This document shows, one piece after another, positions 1 through 6,994 of a stretch of DNA of 22,608 bases. The stretch is from a virus (lineage: Duplodnaviria > Heunggongvirae > Uroviricota > Caudoviricetes). The stretch lies in IMG/VR virus record IMGVR_UViG_2737471849_000007. One strand, written 5' to 3'. A model generated the notes under the pieces. It did no database searches. It was not told the origin of the DNA and saw only the letters and a program-made list of their open reading frames with translations. The translations under genes and the position numbers were made by a program. Within the stretch, counting starts at the first letter, position 1. Each line of letters begins with the position of its first letter.

Positions 1-459
1 CGCTTCAACGATATGTCCGTTGAATGTTGCCATGTCTTCCTGCAACAATTCCTGTGCGCTAATAACCATATCAACGGTGATGTTTTCACATGTGTCGAAC
101 TTAACCATGACAGCGTTCTGTACTTCAGGGGCCAGCTTGTCAAAAGTGACGTTCATCGGATCGGATTCAGTCTCAACCGGGACAAAAGAAGCAGACTCCT
201 CATCCCAGCGGTTTTCCTGCATATATTCAGCATCCCATGAATCGAGGGCAGGGCGGGGTATACCAGGTTTATCCTCGCAGACAATAAATTTATAAGCGCA
301 GTCCTGAGCAGCCGGATAATGTTCCAGGAATTGCCAGTGAAATTTTGCTCGAGCACGGCGTTCGTCGCCAGCTTCAATGGCTGTGGCTACAGCCACAGCG
401 CCTTCTTCCCTTGTTGCCAGTTCGTCAGGAATAGCGGCGCAAATAAAGACTTTACTCAT
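1..459 (-). CDS. ydfE: Prophage protein YdfE-like, N-terminal 153 codons (3' end beyond window)
   Basis: Minus-strand ORF from ATG (rc of 457-459), open to position 1 with no stop; GAGG about 10 nt upstream; translation begins MSKVFICAAIPDELATREEG. Not in the ORF track because no stop lies in the window. Symbol from memory of K-12 gene order. Confidence 0.55.
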   Translation of the reverse strand, partial: MSKVFICAAIPDELATREEGAVAVATAIEAGDERRARAKFHWQFLEHYPAAQDCAYKFIVCEDKPGIPRPALDSWDAEYMQENRWDEESASFVPVETESDPMNVTFDKLAPEVQNAVMVKFDTCENITVDMVISAQELLQEDMATFNGHIVEA

Positions 460-552
460 TTTGTTTTAACCTCATGACAGATTTAAGGATGAACAAATCC
501 CTGCCATTGCTGGCATATAAGAATGAAACCGGATATTTATTACGGAACTGTT

Positions 553-744
553 TTAAAGACCTGCCGGGATTTCGATATTATCCTGGTGAATAACTTTATC
601 GACCGGGTAACAGTTACCGGGAATTTTCTGTTCGGTTGCTGCAGTCATACACTCCTGCATTGTCCTGTGAACACTGACTGCAATATCAACTGGCACTCCG
701 GAAACAAGAAAAACTGTCAGAACAAGCGCAAATGCTGAATTCAT
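553..744 (-). CDS. ydfD: Prophage small protein YdfD (63 aa)
   Basis: Internal ATG of track ORF 553..798 gives 63 aa (MNSAFALVLTVFLVSG..., hydrophobic N-terminus); start overlaps the dicB stop (ATGA); length and position match remembered ydfD. Confidence 0.75.
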   Translation of the reverse strand: MNSAFALVLTVFLVSGVPVDIAVSVHRTMQECMTAATEQKIPGNCYPVDKVIHQDNIEIPAGL

Positions 745-929
745 TGTGCACATCCTTTTGGCATCAGACGTAAACGAGCCAGCATTGAAACAATGCATAT
801 TTTATTTAATAGCTCCCGTTCTTGTTTTCTCTTGTTAATGGCATCTTCAGTAAATACAGGGTTACTGATAGTGACACCAATTTCAAAACAACCTTCAGAC
901 GTATTAACGTTTGGTAATAACGTTTTCAT
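741..929 (-). CDS. dicB: Cell division inhibitor DicB (62 aa)
   Basis: 62-aa ORF MKTLLPNVNTSEGCFEIGVTISNPVF... inside track ORF 741..1034; immediately downstream of the DicF sequence, last gene of the ydfABC-dicF-dicB operon. Confidence 0.88.
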   Translation of the reverse strand: MKTLLPNVNTSEGCFEIGVTISNPVFTEDAINKRKQERELLNKICIVSMLARLRLMPKGCAQ

Positions 930-1098
930 TATCGCGCCCTCAACAATGAGTTTTGTGATGCGGTGCCTGGTGCCTCCAGGTGACGTTAACCAGTTAACAA
1001 TTAACGCCGGATACAGAGAATCCACCCATAACACTGTTTTTGGTTTTAACTGTTCCGCGTGCGCTCAGCCGCATTCACCACATCACAAAATTCACTTT

Positions 1099-1156
1099 AA
1101 AAAGGGCGGCAGAGCAGTCACGGAGTAAAACTGATACCGCCAAACGTCACCAGAAA
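1099..1156 (-). ncRNA. dicF: DicF small regulatory RNA (antisense inhibitor of ftsZ translation)
   Basis: Reverse complement of 1099-1156 reads TTTCTGGTGACGTTTGGCGGTATCAGTTTTACTCCGTGACTGCTCTGCCGCCCTTTTT, matching remembered DicF and ending in a T-run; lies between ydfC and dicB. Ends approximate to a few nt. Confidence 0.85.
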
Positions 1157-1496
1157 ATTGATAACAGAGGGCGTTGCAGCGGGGTTGTCACTTAAGCGTA
1201 TGGTCAACCTGACAACCCGGTGTCCTCAACGGGGAAGGAATAACCCCGCCATACTTACCGCCGCGCCATTTCGCGGGTTGCCACAACCGGAAGCGCACGG
1301 TCGACGAAAATTTAACGACAGGCTATCTATGAACCAGCTACCTCGCCGTGCGCTTTCGCGTTATGGTCTGACTTTTCAGGGAAATATCCTTTCAGTAAAC
1401 TGTCAGTGCCGGATGCTCACCCGTGTCCGGCGCACGCACTCCACCTCACCCGTGGAGAACTCCTTAATTACCAACCTTAGCTTCGTTGGTTAGCTA

Positions 1497-1715
1497 TTAA
1501 CGCGGGTATGTAATCATTCTGGCAATGCTTAATGCCGCTGCTTTTTCCAGATTGGTGATATCCTGCTCCAGAGAGAACAGATTTTCAGCCTGCTTAGCCC
1601 TGGCTTCATTAGCCCATTTCAGATCCTGCGCTGCATTAATTTTCTGGTGCATCCACTCATAAAGTTCATCATCGGTATAGTCTGGCGCGATGATAACGGG
1701 TTCTCGTTTCTGCAT
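1497..1715 (-). CDS. ydfC: Prophage protein YdfC (72 aa)
   Basis: Track ORF of 72 aa, position in dicB operon between ydfB and dicF. Confidence 0.75.
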   Translation of the reverse strand: MQKREPVIIAPDYTDDELYEWMHQKINAAQDLKWANEARAKQAENLFSLEQDITNLEKAAALSIARMITYPR

Positions 1716-1744
1716 ACTGATTCCTTGCGGTGCTGTTTCGCTTA

Positions 1745-1873
1745 TCAGCCGTTAGATTTTGCCGAACTGGAAAGCGCCTGTTTAAATTCGCTGAAGCTGA
1801 GAGCTTCTTCGCCTTCGGCAAGGCCTTCGAAGTATTCTTCGTAAGCCTTTTCCATGATTGTGTCGAAATCCAT
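1745..1873 (-). CDS. ydfB: Prophage small acidic protein YdfB (42 aa)
   Basis: Hand translation of minus strand from ATG (rc 1871-1873): MDFDTIMEKAYEEYFEGLAEGEEALSFSEFKQALSSSAKSNG, stop TGA; below the 60-aa track cutoff. Confidence 0.7.
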   Translation of the reverse strand: MDFDTIMEKAYEEYFEGLAEGEEALSFSEFKQALSSSAKSNG

Positions 1874-1874
1874 A

Positions 1875-2030
1875 TCACCCACCTGAATTTCTTTCCAGCC
1901 AGCGACGCGCTCCAGATTCGGTTTTAAACGTTTTGCTTTTGGTATACGTCATTGCGGTGAACGTGCCGTCCTGGTTTGGAAACACGCCGTACACCAGAGA
2001 TTCGTTGTTGCCAAGATCGATAGTATCCAT
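1875..2030 (-). CDS. ydfA: Prophage protein YdfA (51 aa)
   Basis: Internal ATG (rc 2028-2030) of track ORF 1875..2084 gives 51 aa MDTIDLGNNESLVYGV...; first gene of the dicB operon. Confidence 0.72.
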   Translation of the reverse strand: MDTIDLGNNESLVYGVFPNQDGTFTAMTYTKSKTFKTESGARRWLERNSGG

Positions 2031-2144
2031 GCTGACCTCATTTCCCCTTAACGCCGGGGTAGCGGAACTGTTTGCTGAGAACACCGTGCGGTGTCTTGAT
2101 GGAAAATAATTTAGAATAACCTAACATAAGAGGCAAGTGTTTTT

Positions 2145-2164
2145 TGTTAGATTGATCTAACAAA
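2145..2164. promoter_or_regulatory. DicA-type operator palindrome in the dicB-operon promoter region
   Basis: Perfect inverted repeat TTGTTAGA-ttga-TCTAACAA between dicA 3' end and ydfA start; same half-site as the palindrome at 2656-2673; a weaker copy TTAGAataacCTAACA at 2111-2126. Confidence 0.6.
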
Positions 2165-2198
2165 AAGGGTGGGCGCAACTAATCACTTGAAAAGAATG

Positions 2199-2606
2199 TT
2201 ATTTTATTGATTTATTTTTACGCGCTTTAAGCATTTCTTCGAAGAGTTTGTTGAAGTTTTCTACTCTTGCGCGCATTTCAGACAGCAAGGCTTCCTGCTC
2301 GGAAGATGGAAGAGCATCGAATAATTCGATCAATTCTTTGTGGTTGGGAGTTAGCTCTGTTTCCACATGAAGTTCTTGTGCAGGCACTGGTGCCTTGTCT
2401 TCGTCACCAAACATTAGCCATGTAGGTGAGCACTTCAGAGCATCCGCTAAAGCAAACAATCGTTTTCCGACTGGCTGGGTTTCGTCTCTTTCCCATTGTG
2501 AAATTGTGACGTGAGCAACTCCAGCGAGGCGCGCGGCTTCTCGTTGTGTTAAGCGTAATTCTTTTCGTCGCGCCAGAACTCGCTGGCCCAGGGTTCTTGT
2601 ATCCAT
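2199..2606 (-). CDS. dicA: HTH (XRE-family) repressor DicA, 135 aa
   Basis: Track ORF of 135 aa with HTH segment LRLTQREAARLAGVAHVTISQWE; divergent from dicC with an operator palindrome between them. Confidence 0.9.
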   Translation of the reverse strand: MDTRTLGQRVLARRKELRLTQREAARLAGVAHVTISQWERDETQPVGKRLFALADALKCSPTWLMFGDEDKAPVPAQELHVETELTPNHKELIELFDALPSSEQEALLSEMRARVENFNKLFEEMLKARKNKSIK

Positions 2607-2655
2607 AGTTAGGTAATTCTAATTTTTCTTGACTTAGGTATCCCGCGCACAATAA

Positions 2656-2673
2656 TGTTAGAAAAGTCTAACA
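2656..2673. promoter_or_regulatory. Operator palindrome in dicA-dicC divergent promoter region
   Basis: Perfect inverted repeat TGTTAGA-aaag-TCTAACA between the dicA start (2606) and dicC start (2684). Confidence 0.6.
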
Positions 2674-2683
2674 AGAGGGGGAT

Positions 2684-2914
2684 TTGATGCTTAAAGTTGA
2701 CGCAATTACTTTTTTTGGCAGCAAAACAAAGCTTGCCAATGCCGCAGGAGTGAGGCTGGCAAGTGTTGCTGCTTGGGGGATACTGGTTCCTGAAGGTCGC
2801 GCGATGCGTCTACAGGAGGCATCTGGCGGGGAGCTTCAGTATGATCCCAAAGTTTATGATGAATATCGTAAGACGAAGCGGGCGGGGCGGTTGAACAATG
2901 AAAATCACTCCTGA
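2684..2914 (+). CDS. dicC: Cro-like regulator DicC (76 aa)
   Basis: Track ORF of 76 aa, divergent from dicA; length and position match remembered dicC. Confidence 0.85.
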   Translation: MMLKVDAITFFGSKTKLANAAGVRLASVAAWGILVPEGRAMRLQEASGGELQYDPKVYDEYRKTKRAGRLNNENHS

Positions 2915-3419
2915 ACAGGCTCGTGAGGCTCTGGATGCCTGGATATGTCGACCAGGAATGACACAGGAGCAGGCGACGATATTAATCACTGAAGCATTCT
3001 GGGCTTTGAAAGAGCGCCCGAACATCGATGTTCAGCGTGTCACAGATGAAGGTGGCGCGGTTGATCAGCGAGCGCTTGGTGTTAATCGAGTGAAGATATT
3101 CGAACGCTGGAAGGCTATCGACACCAGGGATAAGCGTGAAAAGTTCACGGCGCTAGTGCCTGCGATTATGGAGGCTATCCGGATTAGTGATTTCAGGTTG
3201 TATCGTGAAATTACTGACGGAAAAAGCATCACGTGCATGATCGCCGGGTTAAACAAAGAATATGGCGATGTGGTGGAGTCCGGACTGCTTTTTGCTGATC
3301 CTGCCGTAGTGGATCGTGAAACTGACGAACTTATAGAAAAAGCAATTGCTTTCAAGCTTGCGTATCGACAGCAATACCAACAAAAAGCTGGATGGAATTA
3401 TGAGCCTTCTTTTTGCTGA
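2898..3419 (+). CDS. Hypothetical early-region protein (173 aa), in the cII/YdaT-like position
   Basis: ATG-initiated track ORF overlapping the dicC stop by 17 nt; sequence is protein-like; function not recognised. Confidence 0.5.
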   Translation: MKITPEQAREALDAWICRPGMTQEQATILITEAFWALKERPNIDVQRVTDEGGAVDQRALGVNRVKIFERWKAIDTRDKREKFTALVPAIMEAIRISDFRLYREITDGKSITCMIAGLNKEYGDVVESGLLFADPAVVDRETDELIEKAIAFKLAYRQQYQQKAGWNYEPSFC

Positions 3420-4365
3420 ACGCCCACTGGTTATAAACACGCAGCTGGCAATGAAAATTGGCTTAAACGAAGCCATTGTTTTGCAACAACTGCACTACTG
3501 GTTGAGAGATACCAACTCCGGCATGGAATGTGATGGTGTTCGCTGGATTTATAACACAACGGAACAATGGCTGGAACAGTTCCCATTCTGGTCAGAGTCA
3601 ACGTTAAAGCGCGCGTTTGCAAGTCTGAAAACGCTGGGGCTTTTGCGTTGTGAAAAGCTCAATAAATCAAAGTGCGATATGACCAATTTCTACACGATCA
3701 ACTATGGGAGCGAGCTTTTAGATGGTGGCAAATTGAGCGAATCCATCGGTTCAAAATGCGCCGCTCCATCAGGTCAAAATGACACGATGGAAGAGGTCAA
3801 AATGAAACGCTCCATTGATTCAAAACGACCCAATGTCATCGGGTCAAAATGGCCTGATGATCTTACAGAGAATACAACAGAGATTACTACAGAGAATAAA
3901 AACACTTTTCGTCCGGAAGCTTCGCAACCGGACCCGCAGACGACTGAACAGGATTTTTTAACCCGGAACTCCGACGCGGTTGTGTTTAGTGCGAAAAAAC
4001 GCCAGTGGGGTAGCAGGGAGGATTTGGCGTGTGCGCAGTGGATCTGGGGGCGGATCGTGGGTCTCTACGAACAGGCAGCCAGTGATGATGGCGAGATCAT
4101 GCGACCAAAAGAGCCTAACTGGACTGCCTGGGCCAATGACGTGCGCACAATGCGGATGCTGGATGGCAGAAGCCACAGACAAATTTGCGAAATGTTTGGT
4201 CGGGTTCAGCGAGATCCATTCTGGGTAAAAAACATCATGAGCCCGTCAAAGCTCCGCGAAAAATGGGACGAACTGGTCATCCGCCTGGGACGTTCACCTG
4301 TACAGCGTTGTGTTAATCATATTTCTGAACCGGATACAGAAATTCCGCCTGGTTTCAGAGGATAA
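3400..4365 (+). CDS. Phage replication initiator / replisome organiser (lambda O-like; about 322 aa from ATG 3400)
   Basis: Track ORF 3346..4365; likely start is ATG at 3400 (MSLLFAERPLVINTQLAMKIGLNEAIVLQQLHYWL...). N-terminal winged-helix-like domain, central low-complexity linker carrying DNA iterons, C-terminal domain resembling DnaT-like/phage conserved C-terminus (DPFWVKNIMSPSKLREKWDEL). Family assignment by pattern recognition only. Confidence 0.6.
   Translation: MSLLFAERPLVINTQLAMKIGLNEAIVLQQLHYWLRDTNSGMECDGVRWIYNTTEQWLEQFPFWSESTLKRAFASLKTLGLLRCEKLNKSKCDMTNFYTINYGSELLDGGKLSESIGSKCAAPSGQNDTMEEVKMKRSIDSKRPNVIGSKWPDDLTENTTEITTENKNTFRPEASQPDPQTTEQDFLTRNSDAVVFSAKKRQWGSREDLACAQWIWGRIVGLYEQAASDDGEIMRPKEPNWTAWANDVRTMRMLDGRSHRQICEMFGRVQRDPFWVKNIMSPSKLREKWDELVIRLGRSPVQRCVNHISEPDTEIPPGFRG
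3741..3900. repeat. Putative replication origin: five iterons at 23-bp spacing plus three AT-rich 12-bp repeats
   Basis: Core (G)GTCAAAATG / GTTCAAAATG / ATTCAAAACG ends at 3758, 3781, 3804, 3827, 3851, each preceded by a CCATC-like motif; then ACAGAGAATA / ACAGAGATTA / ACAGAGAATA at 3865, 3877, 3889. A 23-bp period is not a multiple of 3, so the repeat is DNA-level. Confidence 0.6.
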
Positions 4366-4405: not shown

Positions 4406-4828
4406 GTGGCAAAAGTTTTTACACAAGAAGAGCGGGAAAAAATTAAATGGCAGGTGGTGGAACTCGTGCACCAGAGCGGCCGTGAGACGTTACGGCAACT
4501 GGAAGCTAAAACAGGTGCGACTAGATATCTGATGAGCGTTCTTGCCAGAGAGCTGGTAGCCAGTGGCGATGTATACAACTCCGGCTACGGGTTATTCCCC
4601 TCTGAACAGGCGCGTAAGGACTGGCAAAACGCCCGCAAAAAACTCTCGAGGGCAAAGGTGAAGAAACCTGCTGTGGTTGATCCGGACCTTATCTGGTCAT
4701 CACCTGACGGAGAAATACGTCGCTACGACAGTCGCCTAAACATAATCTGTCGCGAGTGCCGGAAGAGCGAAGTTATGCAGCGCATACTGGCTTTCTATCA
4801 GGGTAATTTTCAGGACGTGGCGCAGTGA
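4406..4828 (+). CDS. Hypothetical protein (140 aa), possibly winged-helix; GTG start
   Basis: Track ORF; GTG at 4406 with AAGGGGGA upstream; stop overlaps the next gene's GTG start (GTGA). Confidence 0.5.
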   Translation: MAKVFTQEEREKIKWQVVELVHQSGRETLRQLEAKTGATRYLMSVLARELVASGDVYNSGYGLFPSEQARKDWQNARKKLSRAKVKKPAVVDPDLIWSSPDGEIRRYDSRLNIICRECRKSEVMQRILAFYQGNFQDVAQ

Positions 4829-5181
4829 GTGCACCGGCAACCATTCTTGATATGTGCTGTGGCAGCCGCATGTTCTGGTTCGATAAGTCTGACGAACGGG
4901 CGATATTTAGCGATATCAGAAAAGAAGGATACACATTACGCAATGGGAGACGCTTGATTATCAGCCCTGACATTATCGCAGATTTTCGTGCATTATCATT
5001 TGCAGACGCATCTTTTTCGATGGTTGTATTAGACCCTCCGCATCTTGAGCGTGTTGGTGATAACGCCTGGATGGGAAAGAAATATGGACGGCTGAATAAA
5101 GATGCCTGGCGTGATGATTTGCGACAGAGATTTAAAGAAGCTTTTCGGGTGTTGAGGCCGCACGGCGTTCTGATTTTTTAA
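4825..5181 (+). CDS. SAM-dependent DNA methyltransferase-like protein (118 aa as encoded; possibly truncated by in-frame TAA)
   Basis: Motif I-like ILDMCCGSR and motif IV-like VVLDPPH, then RVLRPHGVLIF; the frame stays open 29 codons past TAA (5179-5181) to TAA at 5269-5271. Confidence 0.5.
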   Translation: MSAPATILDMCCGSRMFWFDKSDERAIFSDIRKEGYTLRNGRRLIISPDIIADFRALSFADASFSMVVLDPPHLERVGDNAWMGKKYGRLNKDAWRDDLRQRFKEAFRVLRPHGVLIF

Positions 5182-5791
5182 TGGAATGAAACGCAAATAC
5201 CGGTAAGCCAGATTCTGGCACTGACAGATAGAAAGCCTGTTATCTGTCAACGAACAGGGAAAAAACGATAAAACCCACTGGATTATTTTTATGAAAGAGG
5301 CATCCAGTGAGTAGATTCGTAAGGTTACAGATACGTATATCTGAATAATTAAATTCAGTTCTGTAAATAAAACTTAATCCTTAACCGGATGGATTTCTGC
5401 ACCCTCAGAACATCAGGAGGCCGCCCGAAAGGGCGGTAGTGAAATGCGAAAGTTCAAAATTATTATTGAAACGGGAATAGCTGGTGGAGATTTTGAGGAT
5501 GTATTCGAAGTGGACGATGACGCAACACCTGATGAAATTCATGACGGAGCATAAGAAATTTTCTTTAACTACTGCAATTACTCATACCACGAAATAAAAG
5601 ACGATGAGGAAGAACAAAGTGGCTGATTTTTGTTCAGCTAAATATAACATCAGTTTTGAAGAGCGGGATGAACTATTAATGGACTATGGTGAGTTACGCG
5701 GTGGAAGTGCTGCTGATGTCGAATCCTAGCGTGATGACTATGAAGCGGGAAAAACTCCGGTCGAAGCATATTGTGATGAGTGGGGCGATGA

Positions 5792-6079
5792 ATGAGCGAG
5801 ATTAATTATCAGGAAGGGCATGAAACGGCGGGGCAAGCAAAACCAGTGACATGGCGATATCGCTACGTGAAAAAAGGCGTTACGGACTTTCAGGGGAAGT
5901 AGTGGTCTGGTGACTGGAAATATGTACCGAAAAAAGAGGATTGTAACGACAGGCCGAACTATCAAATTCAGGCCTTATTCACTGCCTCACCAGTCCCGGT
6001 TACATCAGAAGAATTGGTTAAAGCTGTGCACTTTTATGAACAACTAAAACGCGAAAATCCACCAACATCCGGCAACTAG
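5792..6079 (+). pseudogene. Small prophage ORF interrupted by in-frame TAG (36 codons + amber + 58 codons)
   Basis: ATG 5792 (ATGA-coupled to the preceding frame): MSEINYQEGHETAGQAKPVTWRYRYVKKGVTDFQGK, TAG at 5900-5902, then WSGDWKYVPKKEDCNDRPNYQIQALFTASPVPVTSEELVKAVHFYEQLKRENPPTSGN to TAG 6077-6079. Confidence 0.35.
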
Positions 6080-6333
6080 ATTAATGGGTTAACTATGTCG
6101 GTTAAACGACCAGCCAACTGAAAAAGCGGAAACCTGATTACAGGTTGCCAGATAAGGCAATGAGCTACCTGGCGCGGAACGGACTGATAAGTATGGGGAA
6201 TGTTTTACGATGAACCTTTAGACTAAAGAGTTTGTAACGCTATGTAAGTGATTTTTTCTGGTTTAGATATTTATATGTCCGGCCAAATTGAGGTGTGTTT
6301 AAATGTAATTGCACATTGATTGTAGGAGGAATA

Positions 6334-6847: not shown

Positions 6848-6994
6848 ATGACCAAAGAAACTGTTACGATGAGTCATAAGGAACTCCACCGACTTCAGAT
6901 TATTCAGGAGTCAATTAATCGACATATTACTCAGGAACAAGCTGCGGCACGCATTGGCATTTCTATTCGGCAGGTTAAACGTCTGGTGCCATGA
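6848..6994 (+). pseudogene. HTH-domain ORF resembling the N-terminus of an IS transposase (48 aa), apparent remnant
   Basis: MTKETVTMSHKELHRLQIIQESINRHITQEQAAARIGISIRQVKRLVP then stop; downstream frames do not continue a transposase-like sequence; preceded by hairpin CCCCAGA-caattc-TCTGGGG (6819-6838). Family assignment from memory, uncertain. Confidence 0.3.

What the first reader, a model, noticed from the sequence alone, without database searches (positions are those of the whole stretch)
4825..5271. Methyltransferase-like gene ends at a TAA after which the frame stays open for 29 codons
The ORF carries SAM-binding motif I (ILDMCCGSR) and a DPPH catalytic-type motif and stops right after RVLRPHGVLIF; the same frame continues WNETQIPVSQILALTDRKPVICQRTGKKR to a second TAA. 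Either the gene is a naturally short (118 aa) methyltransferase or it is truncated by a nonsense mutation. It adds to the run of in-frame stops in the next 900 bp.
Basis: partly seen in the sequence, partly recalled or inferred. Interest (0 to 1): 0.45.

Follow-up and report, generated by a model that had tools for sequence, protein, structure and literature searches.

The report
Dead methyltransferase gene in Qin prophage
This is an ordinary broken gene: a small phage methyltransferase in the Qin cryptic prophage of E. coli, inactivated by a premature stop codon and a one-base insertion, and already flagged as a pseudogene in public annotation.

Summary
ORF 4825-5181 (GTG start, 118 aa) ends at TAA 5179-5181, and the frame stays open for 29 codons to TAA 5269-5271. 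The gene is truncated, not naturally short. About 7000 homologues are mostly 155-170 aa. They carry lysine (AAA) where the window has TAA, and they continue with the sequence encoded after the stop (WNETQIPVSQILALTD.KP.I.QRTGK). Removing that G and reading TAA as AAA gives a 162-aa ORF ending at TAG 5312-5314. The window is the Qin cryptic prophage (dicA, dicC, relBE, hokD). NCBI's PGAP annotation already labels this gene "frameshifted; internal stop". The TAA allele is an exact match in 475 of 5426 complete E. coli genomes, always as one chromosomal copy. Intact AAA copies sit in other prophages in 386 genomes. The next genes downstream also carry nonsense mutations, so this is block decay of a silent prophage. 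The intact family (phrog_954) has a class I SAM methyltransferase fold and an invariant DPPH motif. It does not reach the Pfam N6_N4_Mtase threshold, and its substrate is unproven. Low interest.

The parts
4825..5314 (+). Whole pseudogene of a ~162-aa phage class I SAM-dependent methyltransferase (phrog_954 family), from the GTG start to the ancestral TAG stop
   Evidence: Searches align it to intact homologues. After two repairs it gives 162 aa, 89% identical to P0001. PGAP marks 4870-5314 as a pseudogene, 'frameshifted; internal stop'.
4825..5181 (+). Remaining 118-aa ORF. It holds motif I (ILDMCCGSR), the acidic loop D30, D53-F54 and motif IV DPPH, plus strand beta5.
   Evidence: RefSeq annotates it as an ordinary CDS (WP_001310834.1) in E. 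coli W. Public collections hold it on at least 1000 contigs.
4825..4828 (+). GTGA overlap of the methyltransferase start (GTG) with the stop (TGA) of the upstream DUF977 gene. This arrangement suggests translational coupling.
   Evidence: One search shows the sequence. The intact O121 copy has the same 4-nt overlap (DUF977 2088-2504, MTase 2501-2974 in L003).
5179..5181 (+). Nonsense codon TAA replacing AAA (Lys119, in the motif F-K-W-N-E)
   Evidence: Window has T at 5179 where the intact O121 copy has A. K119 is invariant in 41 close homologues and present in at least 90% of 73 distant ones. The exact TAA 40-mer is in 475 genomes.
5182..5268 (+). 29 post-stop codons that still encode the family's conserved residues 120-146
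5257..5259 (+). GGG run with one extra G compared with intact copies (GG). This +1 frameshift creates the TAA at 5269-5271.
   Evidence: gap at alignment column 433. E. coli W shares it. It is missing in only 1 Qin-type genome, VE-V11-M.
5260..5314 (+). Out-of-frame remnant of the C-terminus (KNDKTHWIIFMKEASSE, then TAG)
   Evidence: Searches match it to the homologues' C-terminal ...GKNDKTHWIIF.K.
4406..4828 (+). Intact upstream DUF977 / Ren-like gene (context)
   Evidence: Pfam DUF977 at E 1.8e-28. phrog_142 at E 4.6e-47.
5444..5626 (+). Downstream DUF7167 pseudogene with AAA to TAA at 5552-5554 (context: the same decay block)
   Evidence: aligned to intact copies in MLI121 and CFT073. PGAP note 'internal stop'.
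5619..5795 (+). 58-aa gene with TGG to TAG at 5727-5729 and ATG to GTG at the start (context)
   Evidence: compared with WP_000753064.1 and WP_000753059.1.

Best explanation
Window 4825-5314 is a dead copy of a small (~160 aa) phage SAM-dependent methyltransferase gene in the early-right (replication) operon of the E. coli Qin cryptic prophage. Two lesions inactivate it. An A-to-T change turned Lys119 (AAA) into TAA at 5179-5181. An extra G in the run 5257-5259 shifts the frame. The surviving 118-aa ORF lacks the last helix and the terminal beta6-beta7 hairpin of the class I methyltransferase fold, so it is very unlikely to be active. Both lesions are old and are shared by essentially all strains that carry this Qin segment. 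The adjacent small genes have their own nonsense mutations, so the pattern is neutral decay of genes that a defective, repressed prophage no longer needs. Shown here: the lesions, the homology, the population distribution and the fold class. Inferred: the ancestral enzyme was an amino-group (N6-A or N4-C type) DNA methyltransferase made during lytic growth to protect phage DNA from restriction, and the truncated product is inactive.
Against: In hundreds of genomes RefSeq annotates the 118-aa ORF as a normal protein (WP_001310834.1), so not every annotation run treats it as dead. No expression or methylome data could be examined. The structure model is only moderately confident (pLDDT 70). The DNA-methyltransferase function of the intact family rests on motif IV and on database names, not on a characterised member. 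None was found in the literature searches.
Confidence: 0.95

Rival explanations
1. The gene is a naturally short, functional 118-aa methyltransferase.
For: The 118-aa ORF is annotated as a CDS in many RefSeq genomes and is found on at least 1000 contigs. It retains motif I and DPPH.
Against: Every 118-aa copy is the same Qin allele, at least 98.8% identical in DNA. Independent homologues run 155-170 aa with K at this codon. The post-stop codons still encode the conserved C-terminus. The truncation removes two core strands and invariant residues, including W120 and the conserved QRTGK stretch.
Confidence: 0.02
2. Full-length protein is still made by recoding, that is stop-codon readthrough at TAA 5179 plus a ribosomal or transcriptional frameshift at GGGAAAAAAC.
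For: The insertion lies in a homopolymer-rich stretch (GGG then AAAAAA, 5257-5265) that loosely resembles slippery sequences.
Against: Two independent recoding events would be needed. TAA is the most efficient E. coli stop codon (established knowledge). Restoring the frame needs a +1 shift, whereas X XXY YYZ-type sites promote -1. The window has no suppressor tRNA. Intact relatives have plain AAA and GG. The copy has also accumulated changes at conserved residues.
Confidence: 0.01
3. The stop or the frameshift is a sequencing or assembly error.
For: One genome (VE-V11-M) lacks the extra G, and homopolymer runs are error-prone.
Against: The exact TAA 40-mer occurs in 475 independently assembled complete genomes. 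The extra G is present in the window, IAI1 and W. The single GG genome is more likely the erroneous or secondarily changed one, and it still has the TAA.
Confidence: 0.01
4. The truncated N-terminal fragment has gained a new role, for example as a SAM-binding or regulatory mini-protein, and is kept by selection.
For: The 118-aa ORF stays open in 475 genomes, and its start overlaps the stop of the intact upstream DUF977 gene in a GTGA arrangement that suggests coupling.
Against: Between the two Qin alleles, 2 of the 4 substitutions in the ORF are non-synonymous and hit conserved residues (R76S, L99S). The window allele carries five further replacements at invariant columns. The ORF staying open is expected from recent common ancestry alone, given about 1% divergence.
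Confidence: 0.02

Closest known systems
phrog_954 'DNA methyltransferase' / NCBI 'class I SAM-dependent methyltransferase' of lambdoid and other temperate phages (e.g. WP_001275735.1 in an E. coli O121 prophage; homologues in Stx2c phage Stx2c_EH0430, Klebsiella phage ST16-OXA48phi5.1, Listeria phage A006, Streptococcus phage T12)
   Same: It has the same motifs and the same position after the replication and DUF977 genes.
   Different: The window copy carries a nonsense codon, a frameshift and five replacements at invariant positions. It is a pseudogene of this family, not a working member.
Prophage-borne orphan amino-methyltransferases such as M.EcoGII (beta-class, 349 aa, non-specific adenine MTase; PMC5778455)
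   Same: Both are prophage-encoded in E. coli, are silent in the lysogen and have a (D)PP(Y/H)-type catalytic motif.
   Different: M.EcoGII has the beta-class order (DPPY, then TRD, then FxGxG) and a target recognition domain (PMC5778455). This family has motif I before DPPH, is only about 160 aa with no evident TRD, and does not reach the Pfam N6_N4_Mtase threshold.
Other decayed genes of E. coli cryptic prophages (Qin, Rac, DLP12)
   Same: They show point nonsense and frameshift lesions shared across strains, next to intact domesticated genes such as relBE, hokD, dicB and csp genes.
   Different: Nothing distinguishes this case.

Membership tests
phrog_954 / small phage class I SAM-dependent methyltransferase | Significant full-length profile match | tested here: met
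   The close intact homologue P0001 (89% identical to the repaired window gene) matches phrog_954 at E 8.4e-87 over residues 5-161.
phrog_954 / small phage class I SAM-dependent methyltransferase | Uninterrupted ORF of about 155-170 aa through the conserved FKWNE...QRTGK..KTHW C-terminus | tested here: not met
   TAA at codon 119 and a +1 G at 5257-5259. The locus is a pseudogene of the family.
Class I (Rossmann-fold) SAM-dependent methyltransferases | Seven-stranded class I fold with an N-terminal glycine-rich SAM loop and an acidic residue after beta2 | tested here: met
N6-adenine / N4-cytosine DNA amino-methyltransferases (Pfam N6_N4_Mtase, PF01555) | Motif IV (D/N/S)PP(Y/F/W/H) | tested here: met
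   D70-P71-P72-H73 is invariant in 73 diverse representatives and present in the window.
N6-adenine / N4-cytosine DNA amino-methyltransferases (Pfam N6_N4_Mtase, PF01555) | Score at or above the Pfam gathering threshold | tested here: not met
   16.4 bits against a cut-off of 26.7 for the repaired protein. Only 11 of 73 family members match, with best E 0.0012.
N6-adenine / N4-cytosine DNA amino-methyltransferases (Pfam N6_N4_Mtase, PF01555) | A target recognition domain and demonstrated DNA methylation | not testable with these tools
   About 160 aa leaves no room for a separate TRD. No characterised member was found in the literature. This needs SMRT or nanopore methylome data from a clone of an intact copy.
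Qin (Kim) cryptic prophage of E. coli | Synteny with dicB-ydfD, dicA/dicC, ydfW, flxA, relBE, hokD, rem, ydfU, ydfT, cspB/F/I | tested here: met
   The window is 99-100% identical to the annotated Qin region of IAI1 and other strains.

The most novel reading that the evidence does not exclude
The locus itself offers nothing new. The most novel reading the evidence leaves open concerns the intact family. It is a roughly 160-aa amino-methyltransferase with no evident target recognition domain and an invariant DPPH motif. It is conserved at 45-64% identity in temperate phages from Proteobacteria to Firmicutes, Actinobacteria and Bacteroidetes. It could be a sequence-non-specific DNA methyltransferase or could act on a non-DNA substrate, and I found no characterised member. 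For the window itself, the only unexcluded novelty is a retained function for the 118-aa fragment.
Probability: 0.05. Interest if true: 0.5.

Novelty: already known. Interest (0 to 1): 0.08.

Why it matters
It matters little for biology. The case documents routine gene decay in a domesticated cryptic prophage. The practical value is for annotation. The same dead gene is called a pseudogene in some RefSeq genomes and a valid 118-aa 'class I SAM-dependent methyltransferase' (WP_001310834.1) in hundreds of others. It should therefore not be counted as a methyltransferase when predicting methylomes or restriction-modification content of E. coli strains.

Tried and rejected
- **Solved-structure sequence search:** a family profile against the PDB gave nothing significant (best E 0.09 for PH0226, and 0.52 for the TTHA0409 modification methylase).
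- **NCBIfam:** only noise-level hits to unrelated small-molecule and rRNA methyltransferases.
- **Literature searches:** DPPH motif IV, Qin prophage methyltransferase and DUF977 returned nothing relevant.
- **GAA allele:** a variant at codon 119 was suggested by protein P0020, but it is absent from complete E. coli genomes.
- **Order of the two lesions:** this could not be settled. Only one genome lacks the extra G, it still has the TAA, and it may be a homopolymer error.
- **Divergence profile:** substitutions between the window and E. coli W are spread evenly across intact and dead genes, so they gave no clear sign of relaxed constraint.
- **Source strain:** no complete genome in the collection matches the whole window collinearly (best 97% coverage at 99.5% identity).
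- **Suppressor tRNA:** none in the window.

Full report
**Observation.** An ORF runs from GTG 4825 to TAA 5179-5181 and encodes 118 aa. It contains ILDMCCGSR at residues 7-15, DPPH at 70-73, and ends ...RVLRPHGVLIF. The same frame then reads WNETQIPVSQILALTDRKPVICQRTGKKR (29 codons) to TAA 5269-5271. Twenty-nine open codons alone would occur by chance about a quarter of the time. The homology of those codons is what makes them informative.

**Where the window comes from.** The 2-kb surroundings are 100% identical to many E. coli chromosomes. The annotated context is the Qin (Kim) cryptic prophage:
- Upstream, on the minus strand: exonuclease, ydfD, dicB, ydfC/B/A and dicA.
- The early-right operon, on the plus strand: dicC, a YdaT-like gene, an O-like replication gene (3400-4365), a DUF977/Ren-like gene (4406-4828) and then the methyltransferase.
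- Downstream: ydfW, flxA, relBE, hokD, rem, ydfU and ydfT.

In IAI1 and Res13 strains, PGAP annotates window-equivalent 4870-5314 as a pseudogene: 'SAM-dependent methyltransferase; frameshifted; internal stop'. No complete genome in the collection is collinear with the entire window. The best match covers 97% at 99.5% identity.

**Truncated or naturally short?** I repaired the reading frame conceptually and searched with it.
- The search found 7041 homologues at E<=1e-5. The best are 80-89% identical and 155-170 aa long. Some are about 248 aa with a C-terminal extension.
- In the alignment every homologue has Lys at the position of the stop and then continues WNETQIPVSQILALTD.KP.I.QRTGKNDKTHWIIF.K. 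The 29 post-stop codons of the window are therefore the real continuation of the gene.
- K119 is invariant in 41 close homologues, and W120 is invariant too. In 73 representatives only 40-60% identical, K119 is at least 90% conserved, and D9, D30, R32, P48, DPPH, R108 and W120 are invariant.
- An exhaustive HMMER scan of 1.84 billion representatives gave 2030 relatives. Most of the best 150 align through query residue 155-160.
- DNA alignment with an intact copy from an O121 prophage (WP_001275735.1, no flags) localises two lesions. Window T5179 replaces A, turning AAA into TAA. One extra G sits in the run 5257-5259, where the intact copy has GG.
- Removing that G restores ...RTGKNDKTHWIIFMKEASSE and the stop TAG at 5312-5314. 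This is exactly the end of the PGAP pseudogene.

**The lesions are real and old.**
- The exact 40-mer containing the TAA occurs in 475 of 5426 complete E. coli genomes, always once and always on the chromosome.
- About 480 genomes carry a copy at least 95% identical, so the stop is essentially fixed in this Qin segment.
- The 40-mer with AAA occurs in 386 genomes. These are the 80-90% identity class, lying in other lambdoid prophages at up to four copies per genome, with a few on plasmids.
- E. coli W carries a second Qin allele (98.8% identical) with both lesions.
- Only one genome (VE-V11-M) has the Qin-type context without the extra G, and it still has the TAA.
- A GAA variant suggested by protein P0020 is absent from complete genomes.

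**Annotation is inconsistent.** In E. coli W and hundreds of other genomes the 118-aa remnant is annotated as an ordinary protein, WP_001310834.1 'class I SAM-dependent methyltransferase'. Both allelic 118-aa sequences appear on at least 1000 contigs in public collections. These are not independent 'intact homologues terminating at the same position'. They are the same allele.

**Signs of decay beyond the two lesions.**
- The window copy differs from the family at 6 of 88 columns that are at least 95% conserved: C39R, D40N, P58S, F69L, G102R and K119stop. No homologue differs at more than 3.
- The W allele adds R76S and L99S at conserved residues.
- The downstream genes are also broken. DUF7167 (5444-5626) has AAA to TAA at 5552-5554. 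A 58-aa gene (5619-5795) has TGG to TAG at 5727-5729. The next gene (5792-6213) has several stops, and its TAG at 5900 is shared with related prophages of CFT073 and MLI121.
- The window has no tRNA, so it encodes no suppressor.

Two recoding events in one short gene, one of them needing a +1 shift, is not a credible alternative.

**What the intact gene is.**
- Pfam gives only generic methyltransferase domains. Methyltransf_11 scores 22.6 bits for the 118-aa ORF and 21.2 bits for the repaired protein, against a cut-off of 21.2. It matches 60 of 73 diverse members.
- N6_N4_Mtase is below threshold (16.4 against 26.7 bits) and matches only 11 of 73 members weakly.
- PHROGs places the family in phrog_954 'DNA methyltransferase' at E 8.4e-87.
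- An AlphaFold2 model of intact P0001 has moderate confidence (pLDDT 70, pTM 0.71). It shows beta5 at 110-119, a helix at 127-131 and strands at 138-143 and 150-156. The stop therefore removes the last helix and the terminal beta-hairpin of the fold.
- The family occurs in temperate phages of many phyla, often next to replication genes.
- The motif order is I then IV, with no room for a target recognition domain. This differs from the beta-class prophage enzyme M.EcoGII, which is 349 aa with the order DPPY, TRD, FxGxG (PMC5778455).
- I found no characterised member.

The reading 'amino-group DNA methyltransferase that protects phage DNA' is thus an inference from the invariant DPPH motif, the genomic position and database names.

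**Mechanism and verdict.**
- Shown: the locus is a pseudogene created by an A-to-T nonsense change and a 1-bp insertion, inherited by essentially all strains with this Qin segment, and sitting in a block of decaying small genes.
- Inferred: the 118-aa remnant is inactive. Its start overlaps the stop of the DUF977 gene in a GTGA arrangement also seen in the intact O121 copy, so the remnant could still be translated if the operon were transcribed.

This is ordinary, already recorded in public annotation, and of low interest. The one practical point is the inconsistent RefSeq treatment of the remnant as a valid methyltransferase.

Noticed in passing
window 5444-5626 (stop at 5552-5554): The DUF7167 gene is inactivated by the same kind of change as the methyltransferase (AAA Lys to TAA, an A-to-T at the first codon position) when compared with intact copies in MLI121 and CFT073 prophages.
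   Followed up: partly
window 5619-5795: A 58-aa gene is intact in CFT073 and MLI121 prophages (WP_000753059.1, WP_000753064.1). In the window it has TGG to TAG at 5727-5729 and a GTG start instead of ATG. PGAP does not annotate it at all in the Qin genomes examined.
   Followed up: partly
window 5792-6213: This pseudogene has several stops and a frameshift. The TAG at 5900-5902 is shared with the otherwise 93-94% identical prophages of CFT073 and MLI121, so the lesion predates the split of these prophage lineages or spread by recombination.
   Followed up: partly
window about 6986-6989: Compared with IAI1, about 1 kb is missing here (L001 8690-9727). It covers most of an HTH-domain gene and a partial ISEsa1 transposase, so the HTH ORF at 6848 is cut short in the window.
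   Followed up: no
window 2279-2776: The dicA to dicC intergenic region and most of dicA do not align with IAI1 in megablast, and window 1-2279 is only 95.8% identical. The window strain therefore has a diverged or recombined immunity region.
   Followed up: no
L002 2501-2857 (E. coli W) and RefSeq WP_001310834.1: The same truncated gene is annotated as a valid 118-aa 'class I SAM-dependent methyltransferase' in hundreds of RefSeq genomes, but as a pseudogene in IAI1 and Res13 strains.
   Followed up: yes
L007 (E. coli VE-V11-M) 1201-1245: This is the single Qin-type copy without the extra G (GG instead of GGG) that still carries the TAA stop. It is either a secondary 1-bp deletion or a homopolymer assembly error.
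   Followed up: partly
family level: The roughly 160-aa methyltransferase family is unusually conserved for a phage protein, at 45-64% identity between phages of Enterobacteria, Gordonia, Listeria, Streptococcus, Bacteroides and Akkermansia. Many members have an extra 50-80 aa N-terminal or about 90 aa C-terminal extension. No characterised member was found.
   Followed up: partly
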